DNA from: a virus
Taxonomy: Duplodnaviria > Heunggongvirae > Uroviricota > Caudoviricetes
Reading direction: 5' to 3' (one strand)
Virus record (IMG/VR): IMGVR_UViG_2623620495_000015
Length of the DNA stretch: 34,582 bases
The notes beneath the pieces were generated by a model, which was given only the letters and a program-made list of their open reading frames with translations, was not told the DNA's origin and did no database searches. Below are positions 1 to 33,379 of the stretch, piece by piece (position 1 is the first letter of the stretch; every line of letters starts with the position of its first letter). The position numbers and the translations under genes are program-made.

Positions 1-237
1 ATGATGGTTAGAAATGAAGTAATGAACCTGGACTGGCACCGCGAGTACATTGTCGCAGCTGTGCACACCAAAGGTTTTACGTTGCGTGAACTGTCTGTTC
101 GCGCTGGTCTAAAAAAAGACTCTTTAAAAAATGCATTGTATCGCTCATGCCCTAAATATGAACGCATCATAGCCGATGCTATTGGTGTGGAACCTGCGGA
201 GATCTGGCCAAGCCGGTATGCCAGTAAGGCGGCGTAA
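1..237 (+). CDS. ner: Ner-like DNA-binding transcriptional regulator
   Basis: 78-aa ORF; C-terminal ...AIGVEPAEIWPSRY resembles Mu Ner (from memory); TAATG overlap with the transposase start. Confidence 0.75.
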   Translation: MMVRNEVMNLDWHREYIVAAVHTKGFTLRELSVRAGLKKDSLKNALYRSCPKYERIIADAIGVEPAEIWPSRYASKAA

Positions 238-2279: not shown

Positions 2280-2296
2280 TTTAAAAGGTATTTAAT

Positions 2297-3190
2297 ATGA
2301 GTTTAATTACGCAATTAAATGACGTAATGGCCCGTCGCGGCTATACGCAGACCCACGTAGCCCGTGCTATTGGGCGTAGTAACGCCGTTATTAACCAGTA
2401 TTTGCAGGGTAAATATCAGGGCGATATCGCTGATATCGAAGAGCGAATTTCTGCCTTTGTCAGCCGTGAACGGGAGAAAGAAAACAATCGCCGTGTTAAA
2501 GCAAATTTTGTTGCCACCAATATGGCTGCCAAAGGACTGGAAGTGCTGGCCTACGCTCACCTGGAATGTGAAATCTGTGTACTGTATGGCGCAGCAGGCC
2601 TTGGCAAAACAATGATTCTGCGTGAATACGCAGCCAGAAACCGGGATGCGGTCCTGATTGAGGCTGACCCGGGCTACACAGCCAGGACACTGCTTGAGGA
2701 GTTGTGCCGCCAGCTGGGGGTAAAGGTTCGCGGCAACATTCACGAACTGATTGATGCCTGTGTGCGCGAACTGGGTGATTCCGGTCGTCTGCTGATGGTG
2801 GACGAGGCTGAACTGCTACCCTATCGCGCACTGGAGGTTCTGCGCCGTCTGCATGACAAGGCGGGTATCGGGATTGTCCTGGCGGGTATGCCACGCCTTC
2901 TGATTAACCTCAAGGGGCGTCGTGGTGAGTTCGCCCAGTTATACAGCCGTGTTGCGCTGGCGCTTAACCTGGGCGACACGCTGTCGCAGGAAGATTTTAA
3001 CCAGATAGCCACAGAGCTGATGCCGGAAGCCGTTGAACCGGAAATCAGCGAGGCGCTTTACACGCGCTCGTTGGGTAATGCCCGCCGTCTGTTCAAACTG
3101 GCGCGCGGTGTGTACCGGATTTGTGATATCAGCGATGCCCCCGTCAGCGTGCAAGCTATTGATGATTTCGCAGAAATGTTAATTCACTGA
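2297..3190 (+). CDS. B: MuB-like AAA+ ATPase, transposition target DNA activator
   Basis: 297-aa ORF; Walker A GAAGLGKT; MVDEAE Walker B-like; N-terminal HTH-like segment; follows the transposase as in Mu. Confidence 0.85.
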   Translation: MSLITQLNDVMARRGYTQTHVARAIGRSNAVINQYLQGKYQGDIADIEERISAFVSREREKENNRRVKANFVATNMAAKGLEVLAYAHLECEICVLYGAAGLGKTMILREYAARNRDAVLIEADPGYTARTLLEELCRQLGVKVRGNIHELIDACVRELGDSGRLLMVDEAELLPYRALEVLRRLHDKAGIGIVLAGMPRLLINLKGRRGEFAQLYSRVALALNLGDTLSQEDFNQIATELMPEAVEPEISEALYTRSLGNARRLFKLARGVYRICDISDAPVSVQAIDDFAEMLIH

Positions 3191-3204
3191 CAGGGAGTTA
3201 TCGT

Positions 3205-3537
3205 ATGGAAAAAATGGCTCTCAGAAATGAAATCAGGGCACTCAGGAATATTGGTTGTCATGGGCGCGTTTATTTTGATGGAACCCCTGGTGAAATTATT
3301 CCGTTTGTTGATTGCCGCGTGCCGGGTGAACTGTACATTGATTTGTATTCCCGCGAACGGGAAATCAATGGAATCGGAAATACCAGCGATGACTGGGATG
3401 TTGATGAATGCTATATGCGATTAATGATTATCCCTTTTGAGCAGAATTTACAGGGGTTTCGCCGGGCTTATCGTCTTGCGCGTATGTGTGCCCGTCTTCC
3501 CCGTTATCAGCCACGGCTTGCGTTTGCACTCAGATAA
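3205..3537 (+). CDS. hypothetical early protein (110 aa), candidate inserted accessory gene
   Basis: ATG with GGGAG RBS 7 nt upstream; bracketed by an 18-bp direct repeat of the B 3' end. Confidence 0.5.
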   Translation: MEKMALRNEIRALRNIGCHGRVYFDGTPGEIIPFVDCRVPGELYIDLYSREREINGIGNTSDDWDVDECYMRLMIIPFEQNLQGFRRAYRLARMCARLPRYQPRLAFALR

Positions 3538-3563
3538 TGCGGCAGAGAAATGTTAATTCACTG

Positions 3564-3803
3564 ATGGAGAACAAGATGATGGACAAGCAGACCATTAACG
3601 CCGTCCGTTCCCGTGCCCGTGTGGCCATCCATACCACCGGCGGTCGCGTAACGTGGCAGCATCACCGTTTACCTGTGGTTTATGCCTGCCCGCCCGTGGG
3701 TGGTCCTGTATGGCCGGTAACGGAAATCATCCAGACATTCAGCGGCCTGCGCCGCGTGGTTAAAACGTCCTGTATCGACGGCTGCACCGTCGTATGGCAA
3801 TAA
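3564..3803 (+). CDS. hypothetical early protein (79 aa)
   Basis: ATG overlapping the TGA of the repeat copy (TGATG); in frame with track ORF 3486..3803; Cys-rich. Confidence 0.4.
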   Translation: MENKMMDKQTINAVRSRARVAIHTTGGRVTWQHHRLPVVYACPPVGGPVWPVTEIIQTFSGLRRVVKTSCIDGCTVVWQ

Positions 3804-3815
3804 GAGGAAATCAGA

Positions 3816-4031
3816 ATGACAGTTAAATTAGAAGTAATTATCTATACCAATGAAAAAGGCATGACTTTAACCCAGATTACAGGGAGTTATTCGAAGGACG
3901 TCACTTCCGAAAGGGAGTTTCAGGTGGCAACAGGATTACATGATGTTATCAAGGACGCACTGAGAAATGACTACAACGGTGTGAATATTTTTTCTGAAAA
4001 CGTTGCACCTTGCGCACATAACGCACGTTAA
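3816..4031 (+). CDS. hypothetical small protein (71 aa), AT-rich
   Basis: AGAGGAAA RBS; markedly AT-rich compared with neighbours. Confidence 0.45.
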   Translation: MTVKLEVIIYTNEKGMTLTQITGSYSKDVTSEREFQVATGLHDVIKDALRNDYNGVNIFSENVAPCAHNAR

Positions 4032-4060
4032 TCTGTAAATATCACTGAGGTAATTTAATT

Positions 4061-4705
4061 ATGACGACTGAAAATAAAGTTAAACAATATACGAAAAACC
4101 AGGTGACCGAAGGTTACTGGGTGGATGCCCGTGGCGTAATGACACCTGAAAGTCTGATTAAGGATATTGACCGCGACCGCGAGCAGCTGGTCGGTGAGAT
4201 TGTCGAACTGGTGATTGCTGCCTCCGCCTCGCTGCGTGATTTGAAACTGCGCGCGTTTGGCGATATTCAGGCATTTATTGACCTGTCGGCGGAGAAATAC
4301 GGCGCTGTGAAAGGCGGCAAAAAAGGCAATATCACGCTTTACAGCTTTGACGGGCGTTACAAGATTCAGCGCGCCATGCAGGACCGTATCGCGCTTGATG
4401 AACGCATTCAGACCGCGAAGGCGCTGATTGATGACTGTCTGGCTGACTGGACGGAAGGTGCACGCCCTGAAATTAAAGCCATCATCAGCGAGGCATTCAG
4501 CACGGACAAGGAAGGCAACATTAACACCGGGCGCGTTCTGGCTCTGCGTCGTCTCGATATTACGGAGGAACGCTGGGATAACGCCATGAAACTGATTGGT
4601 GAAGCCGTCCAGGTGGTTGGCAGCAGAAGCTATATCCGCGTGTATGAGCGCGTCGGTGATTCTGCTGAATACCGCGCAATCCCGCTTGATATTGCAGGGG
4701 TTTAA
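4061..4705 (+). CDS. hypothetical early protein (214 aa), possibly DUF3164-like
   Basis: GAGG RBS; mixed-charge globular composition; resembles a family seen in Mu-like prophages (recalled, unverified). A full-length antisense ORF (4055..4708) is judged a shadow. Confidence 0.55.
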   Translation: MTTENKVKQYTKNQVTEGYWVDARGVMTPESLIKDIDRDREQLVGEIVELVIAASASLRDLKLRAFGDIQAFIDLSAEKYGAVKGGKKGNITLYSFDGRYKIQRAMQDRIALDERIQTAKALIDDCLADWTEGARPEIKAIISEAFSTDKEGNINTGRVLALRRLDITEERWDNAMKLIGEAVQVVGSRSYIRVYERVGDSAEYRAIPLDIAGV

Positions 4706-4706
4706 C

Positions 4707-4940
4707 ATGCATCAGGATATCAAAGAGTACAGAGCCAGAAATAGTTGCGCGGCGTATTCGCTGGGCGCGTCCAGAGCAGAACAACGCGGCGATTATGCCG
4801 AAGCTGAAAAACTGTGGCGTAAGGTAGCACAAAGCCCGTGTAGTACCCTGCGCCGCATCTGGGCGGAACACCGGGCAGAGTTCTGTGCCAATGCTCACCT
4901 GAAAGGATGGAAGCCGCCTCATGAACGCGAAGAACTTTAA
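4707..4940 (+). CDS. small ANR-like regulator candidate (77 aa)
   Basis: ATG 2 nt after the upstream stop; pattern AE..G.Y.EAE.LW...W.E.RAEFC resembles small prophage ANR-family proteins (memory only). Confidence 0.4.
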   Translation: MHQDIKEYRARNSCAAYSLGASRAEQRGDYAEAEKLWRKVAQSPCSTLRRIWAEHRAEFCANAHLKGWKPPHEREEL

Positions 4941-5112
4941 TCAGTTATATCCGCCAGGAACTCGCTTCATGCACATTGCACACCCGGCACTGCGTGGTGG
5001 TCGTGTGGTGAAAACCGTTGCGCCAGCCAGAGATTTTAAATGTGGTTGTGTGGTTGAAATTAATGTCGAGCCTTATTTCGTAAAAGTCGAAACACTGAAA
5101 GCACCGCATTAA
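4921..5112 (+). CDS. hypothetical small protein (63 aa)
   Basis: ATG overlapping the end of the previous gene; no recognisable motif. Confidence 0.3.
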   Translation: MNAKNFNQLYPPGTRFMHIAHPALRGGRVVKTVAPARDFKCGCVVEINVEPYFVKVETLKAPH

Positions 5113-5142
5113 TTTAATTTGCTTTTAATTGTTATTTAAACC

Positions 5143-5174
5143 AGGCGTAAACACGCCAGGGCTGGCTTACGCCT
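5143..5174 (+). promoter_or_regulatory. conserved stem-loop module A upstream of gene 5194
   Basis: AGGCGTAA (5143-5150) pairs with TTACGCCT (5167-5174); loop contains GCCAGGGCTGGC; paralogous copy at 5769-5798. Confidence 0.5.
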
Positions 5175-5193
5175 GAATCAAGAGGATTTATAT

Positions 5194-5739
5194 ATGAAAG
5201 ATAAAGTCTGGGATTTTATTGTTACTCCGAAAGGTTTTGCTACCCGTAAATCTGTAGAGTTGGCCAATGTTACGTTATGGGCATCATCATTGCTGGGACG
5301 TCTGGGAGGACCCGGTAGTTTTATGGATGCGGTACTTAATGCCCAGATTGCCGGGAATGCTCTGGCCAGTAACGGGGCTTATATTCAGGGGGACTTGTTC
5401 GCCATGATGGCAAATGACACGGTTGCACTGTACCTCGCGACACGGAACATACTGACAAGAATATCCATGCAGTCATGTAGCGAGGGTATGGAAGACCTCC
5501 GGGACATTCTTGAAGGTGATTTGCTCACTATTTCAGGTGTGCAGGAATCCCTCCCGCGTCAGTTGCGGTTTATTGACCTGATGGAGTCATATAAAGATAA
5601 ACCTGATTTTTTTCATATTCGATTCAGCGGGATGGAACTGCTGGATGAATATTATTCGCTGGATTCGATTTCCCGTGATGTGAAGGCGTTTGTTAAGTCA
5701 GTTGATCGCCATTACCGGAAAGCTGAACGCTGTAGTTAA
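5194..5739 (+). CDS. hypothetical protein (181 aa)
   Basis: ATG with AAGAGG RBS; preceded by stem-loop module A; no family recognised. Confidence 0.55.
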   Translation: MKDKVWDFIVTPKGFATRKSVELANVTLWASSLLGRLGGPGSFMDAVLNAQIAGNALASNGAYIQGDLFAMMANDTVALYLATRNILTRISMQSCSEGMEDLRDILEGDLLTISGVQESLPRQLRFIDLMESYKDKPDFFHIRFSGMELLDEYYSLDSISRDVKAFVKSVDRHYRKAERCS

Positions 5740-5768
5740 TAAGTCTGTTTTTAATTTTATTTGTATAT

Positions 5769-5798
5769 GACGTAAACCAGTCAGGGCTGGCTTACGTC
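5769..5798 (+). promoter_or_regulatory. conserved stem-loop module B upstream of gene 5818
   Basis: GACGTAA (5769-5775) pairs with TTACGTC (5792-5798); same loop core CAGGGCTGGC; differs from module A by a compensatory G-C to A-T stem change. Confidence 0.5.
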
Positions 5799-5817
5799 TG
5801 AATAAGAGAAATTCATT

Positions 5818-6534
5818 ATGGAAAATAAAAGTAAATACATTGCCAGAATTAAAAAACTGTTACGCCTTGCCAGAGGAACATCAAGCCCGGAAGAAGCCGC
5901 TAACGCTATTGCAAAAGCCCAGGCATATATGCGCCAGTATGGTATCAGCGAAAACGACGCGGAATTGTTCGATATTCAGGAGGCTGCCAGCGCGGGTGCC
6001 CCCAGTAATGCTGTGATTTCGCCGCGCTATATGCATGTTCTGTGTAGTCTGGTCCGCAATGCCTTCGGGGTTGAATGTTATATCTCCTTTAAATATCTGG
6101 AATCTGGTTCACGTAAATGCTACGTGAAATTTTATGGACCTGGCAGCCGCCCGGAAATCGCTGCCTACGCGTTTGATGTGCTTTCCCGTCAGATGATGGC
6201 AGAGCGCAGGAAATATCAGGATAAACACTGCAAACGTTGCAGCCCGTCCACGCGGGTGGCCCGTGGTGACCAGTTCTGCGAAGGCTGGGCCTTTGGTGCC
6301 CGTGACGTGATTACGGTGTATGACGTCTCCCCGGAAGAGAAAGGTCGTATTGAGCTTTACCGGCAGAGCCTGCACAGCTCTAAAGGGCTGCGCGAAGGGA
6401 ATATGCGCACAGCTAAAGCGTGTCGGGGTGCAGAGTTTGCCGCTACTGCGGGTTTTATCGCCGGGAAAAACGCCAGACTGCATCAGGGGGTTAATGGTCA
6501 GAGCAACAGACCGCTGGCACTGGGGAGGGGATAA
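5818..6534 (+). CDS. hypothetical protein with DUF2786-like N-terminus and Cys-containing C-terminal region (238 aa)
   Basis: N-terminus IARIKKLLRLARGTSSPEEAANAIAKAQAYMRQYGI resembles DUF2786 (memory); C-terminal part has HCKRC...C motif. Confidence 0.55.
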   Translation: MENKSKYIARIKKLLRLARGTSSPEEAANAIAKAQAYMRQYGISENDAELFDIQEAASAGAPSNAVISPRYMHVLCSLVRNAFGVECYISFKYLESGSRKCYVKFYGPGSRPEIAAYAFDVLSRQMMAERRKYQDKHCKRCSPSTRVARGDQFCEGWAFGARDVITVYDVSPEEKGRIELYRQSLHSSKGLREGNMRTAKACRGAEFAATAGFIAGKNARLHQGVNGQSNRPLALGRG

Positions 6535-6536
6535 CG

Positions 6537-6764
6537 ATGGCTTTTAAACTTCTCAGTGTTACCGAAGCAATATACCAGCCGCCAGGAGAACGCCACGAAT
6601 ACAGGATGAATGACGGCAGCGCGGCGGTTGAGTTCCCTAAATATCCGGGGGCTTCCCGGTGGCGGTTCTATGACAGTGCGGGACGCCGGATTATTAAAAG
6701 AACCGTGCACAACGCCATGAAAGCCGCTGTAGAACGTCACAAAAGAAGGTTTAACTGCAAATGA
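6537..6764 (+). CDS. hypothetical small protein (75 aa)
   Basis: GGGAGGGG RBS; tightly packed after the upstream gene. Confidence 0.4.
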   Translation: MAFKLLSVTEAIYQPPGERHEYRMNDGSAAVEFPKYPGASRWRFYDSAGRRIIKRTVHNAMKAAVERHKRRFNCK

Positions 6765-6991
6765 ATATTGAATTTTATAACTATGGGACTAAAGCAAAAA
6801 TCATTGTTACCTGCTGGCTCTGGGAGTTTCGCCGCTATAACCGGGTTGTGGATGCGGCGCTGTTTGCGGCCCCTGAAGTGCACCATCAGAGCGGTGGCGG
6901 TCTTTTAATGAGAACCGTCATCTACGGTAAGACGGTCCCGATGTTACGGGTGTTTAAAGTGGCAAAACAGGAGGCTGGCAATGGTCATTGA
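6761..6991 (+). CDS. hypothetical small protein (76 aa)
   Basis: ATGA overlap with the upstream stop; operon-style coupling. Confidence 0.35.
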   Translation: MNIEFYNYGTKAKIIVTCWLWEFRRYNRVVDAALFAAPEVHHQSGGGLLMRTVIYGKTVPMLRVFKVAKQEAGNGH

Positions 6992-7271
6992 TAAAACGAT
7001 AACGATAGATGTAGCCATGAATGCAGGCATCGCTCTTCTCGGTTGGTGTTACATCATGCTCCGCGCCGGGATGTGGCTGTCCCTTGTATTCCTGAAAACA
7101 TGGAATAAGCACCGTAAACAGACGCAGCAGCAGAAGGCAATGAATGCGTTTTTTGAGGCCTTCGATATCGACAGTATAGAGCCGGGAGAACCAACCCGCG
7201 TTATCCCCGTAGGTGATGTCGTGATTTTGGTATACCGGAGTGAAAAGAATGAACAGGAGGTGGCGCAGTGA
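6981..7271 (+). CDS. small membrane protein (96 aa)
   Basis: AGGAGG-like RBS; one strong hydrophobic helix AGIALLGWCYIMLRAGMWLSLVFL. Confidence 0.4.
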   Translation: MVIDKTITIDVAMNAGIALLGWCYIMLRAGMWLSLVFLKTWNKHRKQTQQQKAMNAFFEAFDIDSIEPGEPTRVIPVGDVVILVYRSEKNEQEVAQ

Positions 7272-7432
7272 ACCAGCAAACCAGAATAAGCGATAAGAGT
7301 CTGACCAGACTGATTGCTGATGCGGACAAGGTGCTGGAGCGGAACACCCCGGTTGCCGATGAGGAATGGTGGCAGGATTTCCGGGCCGCAATGCTGGAAC
7401 TTCAGGAACGTCGTCGGGAGGAGTTGAAGTGA
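7268..7432 (+). CDS. hypothetical small protein (54 aa, GTG start)
   Basis: Translated manually (below the track cutoff); AGGAGG 8 nt upstream of GTG; GTGA overlaps on both sides. Confidence 0.3.
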   Translation: MNQQTRISDKSLTRLIADADKVLERNTPVADEEWWQDFRAAMLELQERRREELK

Positions 7433-8055
7433 GCAAGATGAAAGAGCGCGGCATGATTTTTAATGATGCGATGGTCAGGGCCATCCTCGAAGGCAGGAAG
7501 ACGCAGACTCGCCGACCTGTAAAAAATGTCGGGGCGGATAACTACCTGGTTATCAGTAAACCGACAAAGAAACGCAATGGTGTCTATATCCATGTTATGG
7601 ATGCACCGAAACATGGTTTATGTCCGTTCGGTAACGTTGGTGATCGCATATGGGTACGTGAAACATTCAACGCTTTTTGGCTGGATAACGATGTCATTCA
7701 GGAAATCAAAAATGGTGTCTCTCTGGCTTCTGAACTGTGTGATTACAAGGCTGATTACTCAGATAGTAGCAATCTAGCTGAGGGTTGGACCCCGTCAATT
7801 CACATGCCGCGATGGGCATCGCGTATTTTGCTGGAAATTACCGACGTGCGTGTGGAACGGCTGCATGACATGAGCGAGGCAGATGCTAAAGCGGAAGGCG
7901 CATCTCCGGCGACGTACAAGATTACACCGCCGGAAGCTGTTTATCGCGTTGGCTTTGGTGATATCTGGCGCGGTATTTACGGGCAAGAGAACTGGTTATC
8001 TAACCCGTGGGTATGGGTAATTGAGTTTAAGCGTATTCAGGAGGGCAACCAGTGA
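7429..8055 (+). CDS. hypothetical protein, possible ASCH-like fold (208 aa)
   Basis: GTG start 6 nt after GGGAGGAG; motifs GRKTQTRRP and GDRIWVRETF recall ASCH-type domains (memory, unverified). Confidence 0.45.
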   Translation: MSKMKERGMIFNDAMVRAILEGRKTQTRRPVKNVGADNYLVISKPTKKRNGVYIHVMDAPKHGLCPFGNVGDRIWVRETFNAFWLDNDVIQEIKNGVSLASELCDYKADYSDSSNLAEGWTPSIHMPRWASRILLEITDVRVERLHDMSEADAKAEGASPATYKITPPEAVYRVGFGDIWRGIYGQENWLSNPWVWVIEFKRIQEGNQ

Positions 8056-8645
8056 GCAACATTAATTACCAGGCACTGCGAATGGCGGCAGAAAATGCAA
8101 CCCCTGGCGAATGGTGTTCTGATAATTACTATGGGGTAATTGCTGATGCCGGACTGAACGCAAATTACTACATAGCATCATGCTCAGGACCAGATAATCG
8201 TGCCAATAAGCGATTCATAGCAGCAGCCAATCCGGCTGCTGTGCTGGCACTGCTGGATGAACTGGAGTATTACAAATCACGCGAAGAGCGGGTTACAAAG
8301 CTGGTTATGGATAACTCGACAAGTTGGGATGCTCTTTACAAGAAGCTGGAAGCCGCAGAGAAGCGCATAGCAGAACTGGAAGCACGGGAAACAAAACCAG
8401 CCAAAGGCGAAGTTCTTGTCGTTGTATCTGGTTTTACTGGTTGCGGAAAAAGCGCCATTGCCGGGGAAATAGAAATCGCGATGAAGGCTATTGGTGTACC
8501 GGTTAAGTGGACTAATGGCGATGCAGAAAAGCGCATGACTGGCGCTGACTGGCTGACAGCAATTGAGATGTACAAACCAACTGTGCGCATCGTGGAAGTT
8601 AATGTGCCACGCGTCGCTGGCATTCGCATCAAAGGAGGTGAGTAG
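8052..8645 (+). CDS. ead/Ea22-like protein
   Basis: GTG start after AGGAGG; motif AANPAAVLALLDELE plus coiled-coil AAEKRIAELEARE, typical of Ea22-like proteins (memory). Confidence 0.5.
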   Translation: MSNINYQALRMAAENATPGEWCSDNYYGVIADAGLNANYYIASCSGPDNRANKRFIAAANPAAVLALLDELEYYKSREERVTKLVMDNSTSWDALYKKLEAAEKRIAELEARETKPAKGEVLVVVSGFTGCGKSAIAGEIEIAMKAIGVPVKWTNGDAEKRMTGADWLTAIEMYKPTVRIVEVNVPRVAGIRIKGGE

Positions 8646-8814
8646 TGCGTGTGGCATGTATCGGCTTGTTACCGTACCCGACTCGTTTTTGGGCTTCTGC
8701 GCTAATTGCAAAGCCGCATGTCCTGATGGCTGACAGCATCATCCCTGCACCGAAACGCCGTACAGGCATTGCGGCGGCGAGACGAGCAGCAAAGAAACGC
8801 AGGAGAACAAAACG

Positions 8815-8997
8815 ATGAAAAACCGTAAGGCAAAAATTCTGTTAGCTCGCAGAAACGGTGTTGGGATCTGGCGATGGTTGAGGATTAGTAACAGACGAGT
8901 GAGGTTGACGGGGTGTTGCGGGGTGATGGGGCACAGTTGTTGCAAAAAGCCCAGCGCGGCGCAAAACCGCTGGAAGAATCACACTAACGCAAAGTAA
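8815..8997 (+). CDS. doubtful small basic ORF (60 aa)
   Basis: ATG with AGGAG RBS, but extremely K/R-rich with CC..CC; may be non-coding. Confidence 0.2.
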   Translation: MKNRKAKILLARRNGVGIWRWLRISNRRVRLTGCCGVMGHSCCKKPSAAQNRWKNHTNAK

Positions 8998-9016
8998 TTA
9001 AATAATAACCAATAAC

Positions 9017-9040
9017 AGACCAAAACATATGTTTTGGTCT
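9017..9040. repeat. perfect 24-bp palindrome AGACCAAAACATATGTTTTGGTCT, with a third half-site GTTTTGGTC at 9053-9061
   Basis: Read directly from the sequence; lies just upstream of the ATG at 9065. Confidence 0.7.
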
Positions 9041-9064
9041 GCCAAAAGTAGTGTTTTGGTCATT

Positions 9065-9343
9065 ATGAAGATTGAACAAATCGGAATGGCAGCCTTCCGG
9101 CAACAGGCTGAAAGCGGTGGCGTGGATGAGTTCGTCGTGCAGCGGTTCGGTGGTGTATATCACCTCTTCGCTGTGAATCGCCGCGCCGGGGTGTCCTATT
9201 TTCTACAGGAACGCCGTGGCGATTACAAGACGTGGCTGTCTCTTGATCGTGCCGCTGCGTTCCTGTCAGGGATTGGCGTTTCACGTTTTACCGTGCGTTT
9301 TGAGGATAACAAACATGCTGAAAAAGATGATCGGAGCCATTAA
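9065..9343 (+). CDS. hypothetical protein (92 aa)
   Basis: Internal ATG of track ORF 9029..9343; overlaps the gemA start by 29 nt. Confidence 0.4.
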   Translation: MKIEQIGMAAFRQQAESGGVDEFVVQRFGGVYHLFAVNRRAGVSYFLQERRGDYKTWLSLDRAAAFLSGIGVSRFTVRFEDNKHAEKDDRSH

Positions 9344-9713
9344 AGCCGGTCAGGCGTATCTGGGGTGGGATGATGCCCTTTATCGCCAGACGCTGGCCCG
9401 CCTGACAGGTAAAACCAGCACCACTCGCTGCAACCTCGATGAACTGCGCATCATCCGGGAATATATGCACGAACAGGGATTCCCGCGTAAAGCGCCCACC
9501 GGTAAAGGTCGCCGTCCCCGTGTTGCAATGAGCAGAAAATCGGTATTATCAAAAATTGAAGCGTTGCTGGCTGATGCCGGTCGTTCCTGGGGGTATGCGG
9601 AAGGACTGGCATCTCACATGTATAAGCAACATGTGATCGAATGGCTGACGGATGAACAGCTTTTCGGGGTGATGGTGGCGCTGGTTAAAGATTCAAGAAG
9701 GAGGAGTAAATGA
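9315..9713 (+). CDS. gemA: GemA-like protein (Mu gp16 family)
   Basis: ATG with GAGG RBS (track ORF 9216..9713 begins earlier at a non-ATG codon); MLKKMIGAIKAGQAYLGWDDALYRQTLARLTGKTS... matches the Mu gp16/GemA family from memory. Confidence 0.65.
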   Translation: MLKKMIGAIKAGQAYLGWDDALYRQTLARLTGKTSTTRCNLDELRIIREYMHEQGFPRKAPTGKGRRPRVAMSRKSVLSKIEALLADAGRSWGYAEGLASHMYKQHVIEWLTDEQLFGVMVALVKDSRRRSK

Positions 9714-10213
9714 TTAAAAAACGGTATTTTCTTTTAGTGGCGTTCATTTTGTCTTTTCCTGCCGTTGCTGAATGGCACACATGGGTACAAAAAGATGCTT
9801 TTGATGATCAACAAACAGCCATGATGGTGGGTATTGGAACAATGGATTTTGGGATTGCTTTAGACTGTTCGAATGACTCACTATTTGCTGGTATTACAAA
9901 AGAAACAGATAAAGTTAACATTGCGTTATTCGGTTCATCAAAAGATTTAATATTTAGGATAGACGAATTTCCAGCAGTAAAGACCACAGGGGTACTCGCT
10001 GCACGAAATGAAAAAATGTATATCTATAAAATAGAGGACAAACAAAAAATCAAAGAGTTGTTATCTTATCTTCGAAAAGCCCAAAAACGTGTTTTAGCTG
10101 GTGTAAAAGAACCGAGTGAAGAACGAGGCGCATCGTTTAATGTAACACCGACAGGTTCAACAACCGCTGTTAATAAATTTATCAAAGCCTGTAACATTAA
10201 GATTCCAGAGTAA
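9710..10213 (+). CDS. secreted/periplasmic protein of unknown function (167 aa), AT-rich moron
   Basis: Strong RBS GAAGGAGGAG; Sec-type signal peptide MIKKRYFLLVAFILSFPAVA/EW; GC content visibly far below flanking phage genes; own terminator downstream. Confidence 0.6.
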   Translation: MIKKRYFLLVAFILSFPAVAEWHTWVQKDAFDDQQTAMMVGIGTMDFGIALDCSNDSLFAGITKETDKVNIALFGSSKDLIFRIDEFPAVKTTGVLAARNEKMYIYKIEDKQKIKELLSYLRKAQKRVLAGVKEPSEERGASFNVTPTGSTTAVNKFIKACNIKIPE

Positions 10214-10223
10214 CTTAATAGCC

Positions 10224-10249
10224 GCCCCTGCCATGTAGGGGCTTTTTTT
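10224..10249 (+). terminator. intrinsic terminator after the secreted-protein gene
   Basis: GCCCCT (10224-10229), loop GCCATGT, AGGGGC (10237-10242), then T7 run (10243-10249). Confidence 0.6.
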
Positions 10250-10255
10250 GTGGTC

Positions 10256-10283
10256 TGTACAGGCGATCATGTATGGCTATAAT
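10256..10283 (+). promoter_or_regulatory. candidate sigma70 promoter upstream of the Mor/C-family gene
   Basis: -10 TATAAT at 10278-10283; 16-nt spacer; -35-like TGTACA at 10256-10261. Confidence 0.35.
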
Positions 10284-10312
10284 AACAGTAAGTTACTACC
10301 GGAGACGCCATC

Positions 10313-10780
10313 ATGCAGACCTTCAGTGAAACAGATCTTCGCGATGCGCAGGCACTGCTGCCCGATTCCGTGCAGCAACTGATTAGCGTGATTGGCTTCC
10401 CCGCCCTGACCCGGTTGATTCGTTCTTTTGGTGGCGTGACGTTAAGTGGTAAAACCGGCGCACACGCCGAACGCACCGGCGGTGTCCATGCCCTGTTACA
10501 TGACGTGCTGACCGAAGACGAAATCAACAAACTGATCCGCTTTCTTGGCGGTGCTCCGTTTTACATCCCCCGTTGCGATCATGCGTTACGTGCCCTGCGT
10601 AACACCCGTTTTATGGCTGATTTACAGCAGCATGTAAAAGACGGGTGCTCACACCGGCAGGCGCTGGCGCTGCTCTGTCCCCGCTACGGGATTTCAGACC
10701 GGTATGCATGGCAACTGATACACCGACGACAAAAACAGACTTCGCTGAAAAGCCCCACCCAGGTGGGGCTTTTTGATTAA
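10313..10780 (+). CDS. Mor/C-family transcriptional activator
   Basis: 155-aa ORF with GGAG RBS; C-terminal region with FYIPR motif and HTH-like segment resembles Mu Mor/C (memory); sits after gemA as in Mu. Confidence 0.7.
   Translation: MQTFSETDLRDAQALLPDSVQQLISVIGFPALTRLIRSFGGVTLSGKTGAHAERTGGVHALLHDVLTEDEINKLIRFLGGAPFYIPRCDHALRALRNTRFMADLQQHVKDGCSHRQALALLCPRYGISDRYAWQLIHRRQKQTSLKSPTQVGLFD
10751..10775 (+). terminator. intrinsic terminator overlapping the 3' end of the Mor/C-family gene
   Basis: GCCCCAC (10752-10758), loop CCAG, GTGGGGC (10763-10769), then T5. Confidence 0.5.
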
Positions 10781-10807
10781 TGAGACTCAGAAAAAAGGAG
10801 ACACGAA

Positions 10808-11095
10808 ATGATGAGTTCTGACACCAATATCGACTACGCAGCACTCGGTGAATATACCGCATTTTCAGACAAGGCCCGGGATGCAGCCCGTCGCCGACAT
10901 GCTGAGATGTGTAATTTATCCAGTTATCTGGCGAGACAGGCCCAAAGCCCGGAGTCAGAAACGAATCATAATGAAGTGCTGTCAGCCGTAAACAGGATGC
11001 TGGACGCAGAACGGGAAATGCGTAATGCCGTGGAAAGAGCTAACCTGTTGGCGCGGGCATGTTATAAGCCACCATTAAAACTCGCTTCCCTTTAA
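10808..11095 (+). CDS. hypothetical protein (95 aa)
   Basis: Strong RBS AAGGAG 6 nt upstream of ATG; no recognisable domain. Confidence 0.4.
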   Translation: MMSSDTNIDYAALGEYTAFSDKARDAARRRHAEMCNLSSYLARQAQSPESETNHNEVLSAVNRMLDAEREMRNAVERANLLARACYKPPLKLASL

Positions 11096-11122
11096 CCCAT
11101 CCAGATAATCAACCTGCCGGGG

Positions 11123-11135
11123 GTGCTGAACACCC
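11123..11135 (+). promoter_or_regulatory. candidate late-promoter activator site 1 (GTGCTGAACACCC), upstream of the lysis cassette
   Basis: Exact 13-mer also at 18545-18557 and 30503-30515; sites 1 and 2 also share CAGTACCC downstream. Confidence 0.5.
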
Positions 11136-11282
11136 CCAGCAGTACCCACCACACCAGACCGTTTACCCTGTCCACTCAGACCACAAGGCACCTTAAGGGA
11201 TAGCGCCCTGCAAAAGGCTTTTGTGCCTTTGACAGGGTGTTATTTACGGGCCGTCAGTGGCTCAGATTTACAGGAGAAACTC

Positions 11283-11675
11283 ATGTCTGAACCCTTATCA
11301 GGCGGCGGAGCTGTGGCAGTCACCATCGGTGGTGCCAGTGTGTTTGGCCTTCTCACCAATACCGATTTCGGGGTCGTGGTGGGCGCGTTTGCCGGGGCGC
11401 TTTTTGTTGTCACGCAGCAGAAAGAAATCCCGGTCTGGCGAATGGCCATCCACCTGCTCGTCGCGTTTGTGGTTGGCGTTCTGGGGGCTGGCGTGGCTGC
11501 GTCACTGATGCAGTGGCTGACCCACTACAACGACAAGCCGCTAGATGCATTGTGTGCGGTCGGTGTCTCGGCGCTCTCAATCAAGATTCTGACGTTTATT
11601 TATAAACAGGATATTTCATCGCTGTTTGGCCTGTTTTCACGGCTGCGCGGCGGAGGGGGTGAAAATGGTAAGTAG
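11283..11675 (+). CDS. putative holin (130 aa, multi-pass membrane protein)
   Basis: ATG with AGGAG RBS; about three hydrophobic segments; first gene of the lysis cassette. Confidence 0.5.
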   Translation: MSEPLSGGGAVAVTIGGASVFGLLTNTDFGVVVGAFAGALFVVTQQKEIPVWRMAIHLLVAFVVGVLGAGVAASLMQWLTHYNDKPLDALCAVGVSALSIKILTFIYKQDISSLFGLFSRLRGGGGENGK

Positions 11676-11961
11676 CGTTGCCGGCATTGTTAACGTCTGG
11701 CTGTGTGTCGCCATTGTGTTCGGGTTGTTCGTGTACCGCCGTAAAGGGGCTGTTCATAAACCTGCGGTCACCTGGGTGGCGTACTGGCTGATGCTCTGGT
11801 ACGCCATCATCCCGTTCCGCTGGTTGTTTGGTACGTACACCCACTCCAGCTGGCTGGTTGTGGCGCTTAATCTGGTGTTCTGTGCGCTCATCGTGTGGGC
11901 GCACGGGAATTTGTCGAAAATCCTTTCGTTACTGAGGTATCCATATGAAATCAAAAGATGA
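11665..11961 (+). CDS. small membrane protein (98 aa), holin/antiholin-like partner
   Basis: ATG 7 nt after GGAGGG; two to three hydrophobic helices; overlaps neighbours at both ends. Confidence 0.45.
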   Translation: MVSSVAGIVNVWLCVAIVFGLFVYRRKGAVHKPAVTWVAYWLMLWYAIIPFRWLFGTYTHSSWLVVALNLVFCALIVWAHGNLSKILSLLRYPYEIKR

Positions 11962-12490
11962 AATCTTTGACAGCGTTCTGGGTAAAGAAGGCGGTTACGT
12001 CAATCACCCGGATGATAAAGGTGGCCCGACCAAATGGGGAATTACGGAAAAAGTCGCCCGCGCTCACGGATACCGTGGCGATATGCGCGATCTAACCCGC
12101 GAACAGGCGCTGGACATCCTTGAAGCCGATTACTGGTATGGCCCGCGATTTGACCAGGTCGCCGCGTTATCCTCTGATATTGCCGCAGAGCTGTGTGATA
12201 CCGGTGTGAATATGGGGCCAACCGTGGCGTCCAGAATGCTTCAGCGCTGGCTGAATGTGTTCAATCTGCGCGGCAGGATGTATCCCGATATGGATGCAGA
12301 CGGGCGCATCGGGCCTCGTACTATCAGTGCATTGCGCGCCTTCCTGAATTATCGCGGTCAGGACGGCGAACGGGTGATGCTGAAGGCCCTGAACTGCACG
12401 CAGGGTGAGCGCTATCTGGAACTGGCAGAGAAACGCGAAGCCAACGAATCGTTTGTTTATGGCTGGCTGGAGGAGCGCGTGGCGGTATGA
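11945..12490 (+). CDS. endolysin, glycoside hydrolase family 108-like with C-terminal peptidoglycan-binding region
   Basis: N-terminal EGGYVNHPDDKGGPTKWGIT is the hallmark GH108 motif (TtsA-like muramidases). Confidence 0.8.
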   Translation: MKSKDEIFDSVLGKEGGYVNHPDDKGGPTKWGITEKVARAHGYRGDMRDLTREQALDILEADYWYGPRFDQVAALSSDIAAELCDTGVNMGPTVASRMLQRWLNVFNLRGRMYPDMDADGRIGPRTISALRAFLNYRGQDGERVMLKALNCTQGERYLELAEKREANESFVYGWLEERVAV

Positions 12491-12669
12491 CGCGTCAGCA
12501 CTGGACCCACAGAACGCCACGTAAAGCCGCGCGCTGTGTTCTGGCCCTGTTTCTGGTGATGTTGCTTCCGGTGGGATGCACAGACATTAACAGAGCGGGC
12601 CAGCTGTTTGACGCGGCGGCGCAGGTCTGCCGGATTATTGACGGTATCCGGCAGTGTTCGCAGAACTGA
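12487..12669 (+). CDS. small putative lipoprotein (60 aa), possible spanin-like lysis accessory
   Basis: ATGA overlap with the endolysin stop; signal-like N-terminus ending LLPVGC (non-canonical lipobox); three Cys in the mature part. Confidence 0.3.
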   Translation: MTRQHWTHRTPRKAARCVLALFLVMLLPVGCTDINRAGQLFDAAAQVCRIIDGIRQCSQN

Positions 12670-12689: not shown

Positions 12690-12896
12690 GTGAGCATTAT
12701 CAGATTTACAGAATACACAGGTTCAGGAGGTGCTGGCGCTGTCATGGTGCTCGCTGAACGAATCACCCATTTTTACCGTCAGTACGGTACACATGATGGC
12801 ACTGTCATTGAACTGGATACCGGGAAAAACGTATTTGTTCTTGAAAATCCCGACGAAGTTCAGCGCAGGATTGAACAGGCTCAGAAGGACACTTAA
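12690..12896 (+). CDS. hypothetical small protein (68 aa, GTG start)
   Basis: Track ORF; TAATG overlap with the following gene. Confidence 0.35.
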   Translation: MSIIRFTEYTGSGGAGAVMVLAERITHFYRQYGTHDGTVIELDTGKNVFVLENPDEVQRRIEQAQKDT

Positions 12897-13396
12897 TGGC
12901 GTGGTCACAGGATATCAGGGACAAAGTCCGTAACGGGTACATCTTTGACCAGCTTCCGCTGGATATCGTCGCCATGAAGTACGCCGTACCGCACGATACC
13001 GCGCGGCGCTGGAAAACGCAGGCAATGAAGAACGGCGACGACTGGGACAAGCTGCGGGCCGCGCACGCGCTCGCCGGTGACGGGCTGGAAAGTGTCGCCC
13101 GCACCGTGCTTATCAGTCTGGTGGTGAAGTGTCAGACGACGCTTGAGCGGCTGAACCAGAACCCGGACATCCCGCCGCAGGAGTCCGTCGAACTGCTGGC
13201 GAGTCTGTCTGACAGTCTCAGTAAGGCGGTGGCCAGCAGCAAAAAAATCCTGCCGGAAACCGACCGGCTCGCCACGGCACTGGAAGTGGTGCAGCGGCTC
13301 GGTGCGTTCATCAGGGAGCGTCACCCGGCACAGTATGCCGCGTTCCTTGAGGTGCTCGAAGGCTTCGCTAAAGAGCTTGAGGATAATTTCAGTTAA
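12896..13396 (+). CDS. terminase small subunit-like protein (Mu gp27 family)
   Basis: 166-aa ORF immediately upstream of the large terminase; N-terminal HTH-like region. Confidence 0.55.
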   Translation: MAWSQDIRDKVRNGYIFDQLPLDIVAMKYAVPHDTARRWKTQAMKNGDDWDKLRAAHALAGDGLESVARTVLISLVVKCQTTLERLNQNPDIPPQESVELLASLSDSLSKAVASSKKILPETDRLATALEVVQRLGAFIRERHPAQYAAFLEVLEGFAKELEDNFS

Positions 13397-13430
13397 CCAC
13401 AGCGGCCCGGTTTTCCGGGCCGTCTGATAT

Positions 13431-15089
13431 TTGTATACCAGGTGTGACGTGGCAAAACGTAAACTTTCCATTAAAGAGTTTCAGAGAAGCCTGCAGGAGT
13501 ACATCGCCAACCTCCGCCAGACCATCGAGGCTGAATGTCTGGGGTTCGATGTTAACCCGCAGGCCACACAGGCCCGCCGGGCGGCAGTCTGCGACCCGGT
13601 GACGGGCTACGATTATTTTGTCGAAAACTATTTCCCGCATTACGTCCGCAACCCGGCAAAAAGTGAGCTGCATAAATACCTGTTCAGCCGTCTGCCACAG
13701 GTTGTGGCAAGCCCGGACCCGGAGAACGACGCCATCGCCGCGCCCCGTGGTGAAGCAAAATCCACGCTGGTGACTCAGCTGTTTACCCTGTGGACCATTA
13801 TCCGGGCCATTAAACATTACCCGGTCATCATTATGGACAGTATCGACCAGGCTTACCCGATGCTGGAAGCCATCAAGGCTGAACTGGAATTTAACCCCCG
13901 TTTAAAAAACGATTTCCCGGAAGTGTGCGGACAGGGCCGTGTCTGGCGTATGGGGACCATCGTCACGGCCAACAATATCAAGGTAACCGTTGCCGGTAGT
14001 GGTAAAAAACTGCGTGGTCTGCGCCACGGCCCGTACCGTCCTGACCTGGTCATCCTCGATGACATCGAGAACGACGAGATGGTGCGTAACCCGGAGCAGC
14101 GCGACAAGCTGCATGACTGGCTCACCAGAACCGTGATGCCGCTGGGCGAGGCTGGCGGTAAAACCGATATTATTTATATCGGGACTATCCTGCATTACGA
14201 CTCGGTATTGTCCCGCACCCTGGATAACCCGATGTGGAAAACAGCCCGCTTTAAGGCTGTTATTCAGTGGCCTGCCAACATGAAGCTGTGGGACGAGTGG
14301 GAAGAACTCATCCGCAACAAACAGCCGGAAGCGGCGGAGGCACTTTATCAGCAGAACGAAGCCGACATGCTCGCCGGGTCGGTGGTGTCATGGGCGGCGC
14401 GCCCACTGCTGGCGCTGATGAAAATCCGTGTCCGTGACGGTCACGACACCTTTGATTCTGAATACCAGAACGACCCGGTCAGCGGTGAAGATGCGCTGTT
14501 TGCGGGCTGCATTAAGTTCTGGGTTAACCGTCTTGATGAATGGGTGTTTTATGGTGCTGTTGACCCCAGTCTCGGGAAGAAGAATAAAAACCGCGACCCG
14601 TCGGCCATTCTCGTGGGGGGCTTTAACCGTTTTACCGGCATTCTGGATGTGGTTGAAGCCGATATCCGCCGACGTCTGCCAAACAAACTTATCGAAGACG
14701 TGATTAAGTATCAGCGGGAATACCACTGTCTGTGCTGGTCGTTTGAGTCCGTTCAGTTTCAGGAGTTTCTGCGTACCGTGCTGGTTGAGCGTTCGGCGGC
14801 GCTGGGCGTACCGGTTCCGGCGCTGCCGGTCATCCCGCTGGAGGATAAGGCACTGCGTATCGAATCCCTTCAGCCGCATATGGCCAACGGCCTGATTCGT
14901 ATCAGCCACACACATCAGACGCTGATTGACCAGCTGCGCCACTACCCCAAAGCTGACCACGATGATGGCCCGGACTGTCTGCACATGCTGTGGACGCTGG
15001 CGGTTTCGCGTAGCGCAAAATTTCAGATACACACCCCACGCAGCAGCGGGCGTGACCGTGGCGGGCGTTTTGGTTCAGGAGGATGGTAA
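13431..15089 (+). CDS. terminase large subunit (Mu gp28-like)
   Basis: 552-aa ORF with ATPase-like N-terminal half and nuclease-like C-terminal half; start uncertain (track uses TTG 13431; GTG 13449 also possible). Confidence 0.8.
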   Translation: MYTRCDVAKRKLSIKEFQRSLQEYIANLRQTIEAECLGFDVNPQATQARRAAVCDPVTGYDYFVENYFPHYVRNPAKSELHKYLFSRLPQVVASPDPENDAIAAPRGEAKSTLVTQLFTLWTIIRAIKHYPVIIMDSIDQAYPMLEAIKAELEFNPRLKNDFPEVCGQGRVWRMGTIVTANNIKVTVAGSGKKLRGLRHGPYRPDLVILDDIENDEMVRNPEQRDKLHDWLTRTVMPLGEAGGKTDIIYIGTILHYDSVLSRTLDNPMWKTARFKAVIQWPANMKLWDEWEELIRNKQPEAAEALYQQNEADMLAGSVVSWAARPLLALMKIRVRDGHDTFDSEYQNDPVSGEDALFAGCIKFWVNRLDEWVFYGAVDPSLGKKNKNRDPSAILVGGFNRFTGILDVVEADIRRRLPNKLIEDVIKYQREYHCLCWSFESVQFQEFLRTVLVERSAALGVPVPALPVIPLEDKALRIESLQPHMANGLIRISHTHQTLIDQLRHYPKADHDDGPDCLHMLWTLAVSRSAKFQIHTPRSSGRDRGGRFGSGGW

Positions 15090-32562: not shown

Positions 32563-33365
32563 TGCGGAATTTAATGCCCCCGGTGAATACGCCGGATAAG
32601 TTATTTCATGACGGTGACCCGACTCAGGGAATTGAGGGAACCATCGTTACTGCTGAATTTATGAATAATCATCAGGCAGCGACGCGTGATTTGCAGCAGG
32701 AGGTGATTAACGTTCTTAAGGAGGCTGGCGTCACCCCGGACCCGGAAAAACAAAACCAGCTGGTTGAGGCGCTGACCTCGTTTATTGGCCAGAAAGTCCC
32801 GGATGCATCGCTGACGCAAAAAGGCGTGGTACAGCTTAACAGCGCTGTTAACAGTGAATCAGAAACAGAAGCTGCCACACCAAAAGCGGTCAAGATTGCG
32901 ATGGATAACGCAAACGCCAGGCTCGCAAAAGACCGTAACGGCGCAGACATCCCGAATAAACAATTGTTTCTGGATAACATCGGCGGTGCGCCGAAAACGC
33001 GCAAAATTAACAATATGCCCCTGACGTCGGATATCACCATCAACAACATCGGCGGCAATGCCGGAACGGCAACCCGGCTTCAGACGGCCCGCAGGATTAA
33101 CAATGTGCTGTTTGATGGCTCCAGAGATATCACCATCAGCAGCACCGATTCTGGTGCAGTACGTGATTTCAGATACACCAGCGAAGTGTTTCACAATCCC
33201 GGTGGTAACCAAATTTCCTGGGTATTCCGCGCGCCTTCAGGGTGTATTTTGTCAGGTATTAACGTTCAGGAAACTGGCAAAAGCTCTGCGGATAACATCG
33301 GGGGTGTGTATTACAAACAAACTCAGATTTATATCAATGGCGGATGGCGCACGGTATCCGGCTAA
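32562..33365 (+). CDS. tail fibre protein (Mu S/gp49 position), short form
   Basis: 267 aa; KGVVQLNSAVNSESETEAATPKAVKIAMDNAN matches the conserved motif of lambda Stf / P2 H-type fibres (memory). Confidence 0.7.
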   Translation: MRNLMPPVNTPDKLFHDGDPTQGIEGTIVTAEFMNNHQAATRDLQQEVINVLKEAGVTPDPEKQNQLVEALTSFIGQKVPDASLTQKGVVQLNSAVNSESETEAATPKAVKIAMDNANARLAKDRNGADIPNKQLFLDNIGGAPKTRKINNMPLTSDITINNIGGNAGTATRLQTARRINNVLFDGSRDITISSTDSGAVRDFRYTSEVFHNPGGNQISWVFRAPSGCILSGINVQETGKSSADNIGGVYYKQTQIYINGGWRTVSG

Positions 33366-33379
33366 TTAAGGAGAAAATA

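What the first reader, a model, noticed from the sequence alone, without database searches (positions are those of the whole stretch)
9710..10249. AT-rich secreted-protein moron inserted between gemA and the Mor/C activator
This 167-aa gene has a strong RBS, a classical Sec signal peptide (cleavage predicted after AVA) and its own intrinsic terminator. Its base composition is strikingly AT-rich relative to the whole prophage, indicating recent horizontal acquisition. Mu has no gene at this position. A periplasmic protein expressed from the early operon of a prophage is a typical signature of superinfection exclusion, receptor masking or a virulence/fitness factor.
Basis: partly seen in the sequence, partly recalled or inferred. 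Interest (0 to 1): 0.7.

Follow-up and report, generated by a model that had tools for sequence, protein, structure and literature searches.

The report
Swappable secreted-protein gene in Mu-like prophage
This is a real, AT-rich accessory gene for a small periplasmic protein of an unnamed family with an IalB-like fold, sitting in a slot of an E. coli Mu-like prophage that is empty or holds other secreted proteins in near-identical relatives; its function is untested, most plausibly an envelope-level exclusion or protection role.

Summary
ORF 9710-10213 (167 aa) is real, has an AGGAGG ribosome-binding site, a Sec-type signal peptide and the lowest GC of the window (36.1% vs 54.2%). It lies between gemA and a Mor-family gene, where Mu has nothing.

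- The terminator is not the gene's own; empty-slot relatives carry the same one.
- The gene has no detectable promoter. Its ATG overlaps the gemA stop (ATGA), so it is the last cistron of the early operon.
- AT-richness does not show recent arrival. Family members are 7.5-18 GC points below their surroundings in all 11 contexts examined, and slot alleles differ by dS about 1.1-1.3 against 0.08-0.21 in the flanks.

The slot is hypervariable. Among 58 complete E. coli genomes, about 19 are empty, about 23 and 11 carry two unrelated secreted proteins, and 5 carry a 34%-identical allele of this family. Cassettes share the leader and first ~45 nt, so one joint lies inside the signal peptide.

The parts
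9315..9713 (+). gemA (132 aa from the ATG at 9315). Its last ~10 codons (from ~9684) belong to the variable cassette and carry the SD for the cargo.
   Evidence: PF06252 GemA 9.2e-18, phrog_286. The empty-slot relative L001 has a different GemA C-terminus.
9684..9709 (+). Left junction and shared leader GTTAAAGATTCAAGAAGGAG, with SD AGGAGG at 9699-9704. Homology to the empty-slot allele ends at ~9684.
   Evidence: Junction alignment, identity profile, leader shared by all cargo-bearing alleles.
9710..9769 (+). Signal peptide MIKKRYFLLVAFILSFPAVA, predicted SPase I cleavage after AVA. In sister alleles this segment (first ~45 nt) is shared with an unrelated cargo, so it is the recombination joint.
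9770..10213 (+). Mature 147-aa periplasmic domain plus stop. IalB/MotY-N-like beta-sandwich with two helices. Invariant W22, C53 (9866-9868) and C161 (10190-10192).
10219..10249 (+). Right junction and backbone intrinsic terminator (stem-loop 10224-10242 plus T7). Also present in empty-slot relatives.
10256..10283 (+). Promoter-like site TGTACA-16-TATAAT for the downstream Mor-family gene. 100% conserved in relatives and not part of the cargo.
   Evidence: Best promoter match in 1-12600; conserved in L001-L004.
10313..10780 (+). Mor/C-family transcription activator (right flank of the slot).
   Evidence: PF08765 1.1e-6, phrog_836 1.2e-42.

Best explanation
SHOWN. The gene is an exchangeable accessory cassette in a hypervariable slot at the 3' end of the early operon of an E. 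coli Mu-like prophage. It encodes a small soluble secreted protein with a Sec signal peptide and no lipobox, and two invariant cysteines that probably form a periplasmic disulfide. The protein belongs to an unnamed family carried by mobile elements and has an IalB/MotY-N-like beta-sandwich fold. Translation is coupled to gemA through an ATGA overlap with the SD inside gemA codons. Transcription ends at the backbone terminator. The protein is therefore made with the early (Pe) transcript, strongly after infection or induction and at most weakly in the lysogen. Cassettes are swapped by recombination between the conserved gemA 3' end, leader and signal-peptide 5' end on the left and the terminator on the right.

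INFERRED. The protein is a non-enzymatic periplasmic docking module. It binds an envelope component or an incoming agent and so protects the infected or lysogenic cell at the envelope level. The most likely role is blocking superinfecting phage, following the logic of early-expressed T4 Sp or T5 Llp. I put about 0.9 on the 'accessory periplasmic cassette' part and about 0.35-0.4 on the exclusion function.
For: - Slot polymorphism with 95-100% identical flanks and sharp boundaries at ~9684 and ~10220.
- Empty sites, and Mu and VW-6B with gemA directly followed by mor.
- All four cargo types begin with a signal peptide, are AT-rich and end at or before the terminator. Three of them overlap the gemA stop; the fourth (D allele, L012) has its own RBS after a ~40-nt spacer.
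- The A' allele and the unrelated B cargo are identical from -40 to +32, share 43/45 of ORF nt 1-45, then drop to 12/30.
- Cargo dS is 1.05-1.29 against 0.20 for gemA and 0.08-0.13 for mor. dN/dS is 0.28-0.35, so the alleles are old, imported and under purifying selection.
- The family has 115 clusters at E < 1e-3, nearly all ~165 aa. W22, C53 and C161 are invariant in 70/70 sequences.
- Other members sit in accessory positions: a Salmonella Mu-like prophage in the same slot, a Hafnia Mu-like prophage upstream of gemA, an Enterobacter lambda-type prophage beside Ivy-like, TolA-domain and Acb2/Tad1 genes, a Pantoea lambdoid prophage between lysis genes and terminase, an Achromobacter islet next to Mrr, and a conjugative element next to BREX.
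- IalB-domain and MotY-N proteins are periplasmic parts of envelope machines (PMC7327166). No conserved catalytic-type motif is apparent.
- No promoter-like site upstream, and a single canonical terminator.
Against: - No experimental or annotation link to exclusion or defence: PADLOC, PHROG, Pfam and NCBIfam are all blank.
- The fold match is moderate and to proteins of unknown biochemical activity.
- Overall dN/dS of ~0.3 shows no arms-race signal. Only codons 46-90 approach neutrality (pN 0.46-0.48 vs pS 0.59-0.68).
- No promoter was found, so expression in the lysogen is doubtful. The promoter scan is a crude consensus search.
- About one third of related prophages do without any cargo.
Confidence: 0.45

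Rival explanations
1. Periplasmic immunity or decoy protein against bacterial envelope-targeting weapons (colicins, pesticin-like bacteriocins, T6SS periplasmic effectors). It would benefit the host cell in inter-bacterial competition and not against phage.
For: Small, secreted, cysteine-containing, highly polymorphic cassettes with null alleles resemble orphan immunity genes. Family members lie in defence or mobile islets next to Mrr and BREX, and beside a TolA-domain gene and an Ivy-like gene in an Enterobacter prophage.
Confidence: 0.15
2. Phage-benefit factor for the lytic programme itself. The periplasmic protein would dock on a host envelope machine (for example Tol-Pal, peptidoglycan synthesis or the flagellar basal body) early after induction to condition the envelope, time lysis, or prevent progeny from re-adsorbing to debris.
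For: It is co-transcribed and translationally coupled with early genes and ends at the early terminator. IalB-domain RgsG and MotY-N are parts of envelope machines (PMC7327166).
Against: It is dispensable: empty slots are common and unrelated proteins substitute for it. Cargo type does not track the endolysin type, since the A' allele occurs with both GH108 and M15_4 endolysins. Members also occur outside phages.
Confidence: 0.2
3. Lysogenic-conversion or host-interaction factor acting like Bartonella IalB. The envelope or secreted protein would promote adhesion, invasion or colonisation of an animal host.
Against: It is not a Pfam IalB member: 0 of 125 members reach the cut-off. No own promoter for expression in the lysogen was found. 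IalB's own mechanism and location are unresolved. The family also occurs in Pantoea, on a metagenomic conjugative-element contig and in Achromobacter.
Confidence: 0.1
4. Non-functional or spurious ORF in an AT-rich spacer.
For: No annotated function; rare by simple sequence search (4 clusters).
Against: A 167-codon ORF in 36% GC DNA. There are 115 homologous clusters of the same length, dN/dS ~0.3, invariant W/C/C and a pLDDT 92 model.
Confidence: 0.02

Closest known systems
Morons and regions of genomic plasticity (RGPs) of Mu-like phages (Cazares et al. 2014, PMC4378225)
   Same: A single accessory ORF at a fixed position between conserved genes. It is present, absent or replaced among near-identical genomes, sits in a low-GC valley, and no recombinase target site is recognisable.
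   Different: It lacks the defining own promoter and terminator of a classical moron. It is translationally coupled to gemA and uses the backbone terminator. The exchange joint lies inside a shared signal peptide. The slot is gemA-mor in an enterobacterial lineage.
IalB, invasion-associated locus B (Pfam PF06776; PDB 3DTD) and IalB-domain proteins such as S. meliloti RgsG
   Different: 16% identity. No member reaches the Pfam cut-off. It is carried by phages and mobile elements of Enterobacterales, not in alphaproteobacterial chromosomes. IalB's biochemical function is itself unknown.
MotY N-terminal domain (flagellar T-ring, Vibrio; PDB 2ZF8 and 8Z5N)
   Different: No sequence similarity and no OmpA-like C-terminal domain. 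From my own knowledge, not tested here: E. coli has no MotX/MotY system.
Early-expressed envelope exclusion proteins of lytic phages: T4 Sp (spackle) and Imm, T5 Llp; also P1 Sim (comparison from my own knowledge, not tested here)
   Same: Small exported proteins encoded by phages, made early, acting at the envelope. The same expression logic is proposed here.
   Different: No sequence or fold similarity was detected. Llp is a lipoprotein, and this protein has no lipobox. Function here is untested.

Membership tests
Classical moron (Juhala/Hendrix definition as quoted in PMC4378225) | Inserted between two genes that are adjacent in related phages | tested here: met
   gemA and mor are adjacent in Mu, VW-6B and ~19 empty-slot E. 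coli prophages.
Classical moron (Juhala/Hendrix definition as quoted in PMC4378225) | Own promoter | tested here: not met
   No sigma-70-like site on the + strand between 9006 and 10256. The ATG overlaps the gemA stop. The consensus scan is crude, so weak promoters are not excluded.
Classical moron (Juhala/Hendrix definition as quoted in PMC4378225) | Own terminator | tested here: not met
   The terminator at 10224-10242 is homologous to the one in the empty-slot allele L001 and in L004.
Classical moron (Juhala/Hendrix definition as quoted in PMC4378225) | Nucleotide composition different from neighbours | tested here: met
   GC 36.1% vs 54.2%; GC3 z = -4.0.
IalB family (Pfam PF06776) | Score at or above the Pfam gathering threshold (22.1 bits) | tested here: not met
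   Window protein: no hit. 0 of 125 family members reach the cut-off; the best is P0051 at 18.7 bits, E = 0.002. The family profile does not find 3DTD by sequence.
IalB family (Pfam PF06776) | IalB fold | tested here: met
Sec-exported soluble periplasmic protein | n-h-c signal peptide with an A-x-A SPase I site and no lipobox | tested here: met
   Sequence features and family-wide conservation. No dedicated predictor was available and export was not shown experimentally.
Known anti-phage defence or superinfection-exclusion proteins (PADLOC-DB, PHROG-annotated) | Significant match to a defence or exclusion model | tested here: not met
   PADLOC: only UzuA at E = 0.028 (noise). PHROG 19473 is 'unknown function'.
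Known anti-phage defence or superinfection-exclusion proteins (PADLOC-DB, PHROG-annotated) | Exclusion phenotype | not testable with these tools
   Requires phage challenge of cells expressing the protein.

The most novel reading that the evidence does not exclude
The gemA-mor slot may be a signal-peptide-anchored cassette exchange site. The conserved leader and the first ~15 codons of a shared signal peptide would act as the left homology arm and the early terminator as the right arm. That would let Mu-like prophages of Enterobacterales shuffle unrelated periplasmic 'warheads'. Under this reading, the IalB-like family found here (115 clusters, on phages, a conjugative element and small chromosomal islands) is a new class of phage-borne periplasmic exclusion or immunity protein that works by docking onto an envelope machine.
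Probability: 0.2. Interest if true: 0.7.

Novelty: new member of a known kind. Interest (0 to 1): 0.45.

Why it matters
If the inferred role is right, this is an uncharacterised and fairly widespread family of periplasmic proteins carried by mobile elements. It has a confident structural model and a natural set of isogenic comparisons: the same prophage with an empty slot, three allelic lineages, and two unrelated secreted cargos. That is a ready-made system for finding new envelope-level phage exclusion or immunity mechanisms in E. coli. It would also give the IalB fold, whose function has been unknown since 1995, a tractable E. coli representative. The shared signal-peptide joint is also a tidy example of how phages can swap secreted effectors without re-evolving export signals. 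If the protein has no such role, the finding is an ordinary accessory gene of unknown function.

Tried and rejected
- DNA and tblastn searches of 50,697 phage records with the region or protein found nothing. The gene is not in any deposited phage genome of that set, although it matches PHROG 19473.
- The word-indexed protein search gave only 4 clusters. A full HMM search was needed to see the family.
- Pfam, NCBIfam and PADLOC gave no family for this protein or for the alternative cargos.
- PDB sequence searches with the family profiles (70 and 125 sequences) and with P0051 alone gave only noise.
- Foldseek against the PDB gave no hit at E <= 0.001. Foldseek against BFVD gave only weak matches (TM 0.4-0.53) to uncharacterised phage proteins. 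The AFDB library was unavailable.
- The first AF2 model, from 5 sequences, was mediocre (pLDDT 69) and was replaced.
- Rfam found no RNA family in 8500-10400.
- Domain fusions gave no function. P0086 (capsid E fused to the family's C-terminal half) looks like a chimera or gene-calling error. The C-terminal extensions of P0035 and P0051 have no family.
- Considered but not run: a test of co-variation between cargo type and tail fibre. It would be confounded by clonality, and the window's own allele is absent from the complete-genome set.

Full report
**1. Observation**

The window is a Mu-like prophage. It encodes a MuA-type transposase (237-2279), a MuB-like AAA+ protein, DUF3164, a Mu-type portal and Mu F. 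The exact protein is on 104 public E. coli contigs, always as 'hypothetical protein' (UniProt A0A168T779_ECOLX).

ORF 9710-10213 (+) encodes 167 aa. AGGAGG lies at 9699-9704, 5 nt before the ATG. The ATG overlaps the gemA stop codon as ATGA, so the SD is written in the last gemA codons.

The N-terminus MIKKRYFLLVAFILSFPAVA then EW has the n/h/c layout of a Sec signal peptide with an A-x-A site and no lipobox. In a 70-member family alignment, position -1 is Ala in 64 sequences, position -3 is Ala in 51, and Trp at +2 is invariant. 66 of 69 testable members (70 aligned, one too short) have a basic n-region and a hydrophobic core.

GC is 36.1% against 54.2% for the window, equal to the lowest GC of any 504-nt window in the sequence (minimum 36.1%; z = -3.7). 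GC3 is 27.4% against 60.2 +/- 8.3% for 38 other ORFs (z = -4.0).

A hairpin at 10224-10242 (8 bp, 6 GC) followed by T7 is the only canonical + strand terminator in 1-12600. The flanking genes are GemA (PF06252, 9e-18) and a Mor-family activator (PF08765; phrog_836).

**2. The slot is hypervariable**

Fifty-eight of 5,426 complete E. coli genomes carry the flanks at 95-97% identity, but none carries the middle. Fetching representatives and reading span differences gave these states:

| State | Approximate number of genomes |
|---|---|
| Empty | 19 |
| Cargo B, 158/159 aa | 23 |
| Cargo C, 112 aa | 11 |
| Cargo D, 174 aa (34% identical to the window protein, E = 4e-28, same family) | 5 |

Further alleles of the same family, at 56% and 55% identity, occupy the same slot in draft E. 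coli genomes. A 41%-identical member occupies it in a Salmonella Mu-like prophage.

Identity profiles show flanks at 95-100% up to ~9684 and from ~10220 onward. In between, identity is 40-70% between alleles, or the sequences cannot be aligned.

In Mu itself and in phage VW-6B, mor overlaps the gemA stop, so there is no gene between them.

The empty allele keeps the same terminator (GCCCCTGCC.TGCAGGGGC followed by a T run) and the same downstream promoter-like site TGTACA-16-TATAAT (10256-10283). Both therefore belong to the backbone and not to the gene.

**3. How cassettes are exchanged**

All cargo-bearing alleles share the leader GTTAAAGATTCAAGrAGGAG, which replaces the GemA C-terminus of the empty allele.

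Allele A' (L005) and the unrelated cargo B (L004) are identical from -40 to +32 relative to the ATG. They share 43 of 45 nt in ORF positions 1-45, then fall to 12 of 30. The mature proteins show no similarity. The left joint is therefore inside the signal peptide, around codons 15-17. The right joint is at the terminator; two cargos bring a different terminator.

Synonymous divergence between the window allele and A'/A'' is 1.05-1.29, against 0.20 in gemA and 0.08-0.13 in mor. The alleles are therefore old and were imported by recombination, not evolved in place. dN/dS is 0.28-0.35, which is purifying selection. Codons 46-90 are the least constrained (pN 0.46-0.48) and the C-terminus the most constrained.

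**4. AT-richness is a family trait and does not date the acquisition**

In all 11 contexts examined, the family gene is 7.5-18 GC points below its surroundings. These contexts are E. coli, Salmonella, Hafnia, Enterobacter, Pantoea, Achromobacter, a conjugative element and a chromosomal islet.

**5. What the protein is**

No Pfam, NCBIfam or PADLOC family matches. PHROG 19473 matches but is 'unknown function'.

A full HMM search of 1.84 billion representatives found 115 clusters at E < 1e-3, of which 49 are below 1e-10. Nearly all are ~165 aa. W22, C53 and C161 are invariant in 70 of 70 sequences. A20, D29, F31, D85, N100, G131 and F157 are nearly invariant.

With this alignment AlphaFold2 gives pLDDT 92.3 and pTM 0.85, a beta-sandwich of about nine strands with two helices.

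Foldseek against the PDB finds nothing significant, but ranks MotY (2zf8) second. One family member (P0051) gives a sub-threshold hit to Pfam IalB (E = 0.002, 18.7 bits against a cut-off of 22.1). It is the only one of 125 members to do so. By my estimate, a chance hit falling on the same family out of 24,736 models is improbable. I read this as remote relatedness, not Pfam membership.

IalB is an envelope protein needed for erythrocyte invasion, and its activity is unknown (PMC6299047). The IalB-domain protein RgsG is an essential periplasmic component of the polar-growth/Tol-Pal network in S. meliloti (PMC7327166). MotY-N docks on the flagellar basal body. The fold therefore suggests a periplasmic protein-docking module, not an enzyme.

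**6. Where the family lives**

All contexts are accessory positions on mobile elements:
- the same slot in a Salmonella Mu-like prophage (L014);
- upstream of gemA in a Hafnia Mu-like prophage (L016);
- next to the terminase in an Enterobacter lambda-type prophage, among Ivy-like, TolA-domain and Acb2/Tad1 genes (L015);
- between the lysis genes and the terminase of a Pantoea lambdoid prophage (L018);
- beside Mrr and a transposase in Achromobacter (L017);
- beside BREX on a conjugative element (L020);
- a chromosomal islet (L019).

**7. Expression logic**

No promoter-like site precedes the gene on the + strand between 9006 and 10256, and it is coupled to gemA. It should therefore be produced from the early transcript.

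In Mu that operon is repressed in the lysogen. Low-level Pe transcription and gem activity in lysogens have nevertheless been reported (PMC3820752, citing Paolozzi and Ghelardini 1992).

It favours an early-lytic envelope function, as with T4 Sp/Imm or T5 Llp. Those analogies come from my own knowledge and were not tested here.

**8. Verdict**

The gene is a genuine accessory cassette for a periplasmic IalB-like protein in a polymorphic slot. The concept of low-GC accessory slots in Mu-like phages is established (PMC4378225). The function is inferred only. I favour envelope-level exclusion or protection (about 0.35-0.4). The alternatives are immunity to bacterial weapons, a helper role in lytic development, and a host-interaction factor.

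It is a new member of a known kind and of moderate interest. The noteworthy points are the unnamed but sizeable family with a confident model, the IalB link, and the signal-peptide-anchored exchange.

Noticed in passing
window 8978-9044: A perfect palindrome with 14-bp arms (9013-9044) lies next to a weak promoter-like site (8978-9006), just upstream of ORF 9029-9343 (phrog_7844). Many E. coli relatives lose homology left of ~9016. This is the edge of another variable region and possibly an operator or internal promoter for the ORF-gemA-cargo trio.
   Followed up: partly
window 10224-10283 and 10313-10780: In this lineage the Mor-family gene sits behind a terminator and has its own promoter-like site (TGTACA-16-TATAAT). 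In Mu and VW-6B, mor overlaps gemA by 4 nt. Only one Mor/C-family gene was noticed in the region examined.
   Followed up: partly
L002:2195-2674, L004:2211-2687, L013:1011-1490: Alternative cargo B (158/159 aa, secreted, ~41% GC) is another orphan family with no Pfam or PHROG match. Alleles at 64-99% identity occur in E. coli, E. albertii, Salmonella and Yersinia. Its signal peptide contains ...IFSC..., a loose lipobox-like motif.
   Followed up: partly
L003:2192-2530: Alternative cargo C (112 aa, secreted, 38% GC) matches phrog_5882 (unknown function) and has a weak Sel1-repeat hit (E = 0.026).
   Followed up: partly
L005, L008-L010 vs window 12896-13431: There are other presence/absence polymorphisms in the same prophage lineage. 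An N6_N4 DNA methyltransferase lies between DUF1804 and the large terminase in some relatives but not in the window. The endolysin is either GH108 or Peptidase_M15_4.
   Followed up: no
NZ_OZ547097.1 and NZ_OZ547049.1 (hits H11/H12, H41/H42): A prophage of this lineage, with an empty slot, lies on ~249-kb E. coli plasmids.
   Followed up: no
L015:5001-10504: In an Enterobacter lambda-type prophage the family member sits in a cluster with an Ivy-like gene, a TolA-domain gene and an Acb2/Tad1-hairpin gene next to the terminase. This looks like an accessory counter-defence or envelope island.
   Followed up: no
P0086 (266 aa): The N-terminal half is phage major capsid protein E and the C-terminal 90 residues belong to this family. 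It is probably an assembly or gene-calling chimera.
   Followed up: partly
window 3801-4200, 5001-5400, 33201-33600: These are other, milder low-GC dips (40.7%, 43.5%, 43.2%) that may mark further accessory segments.
   Followed up: no
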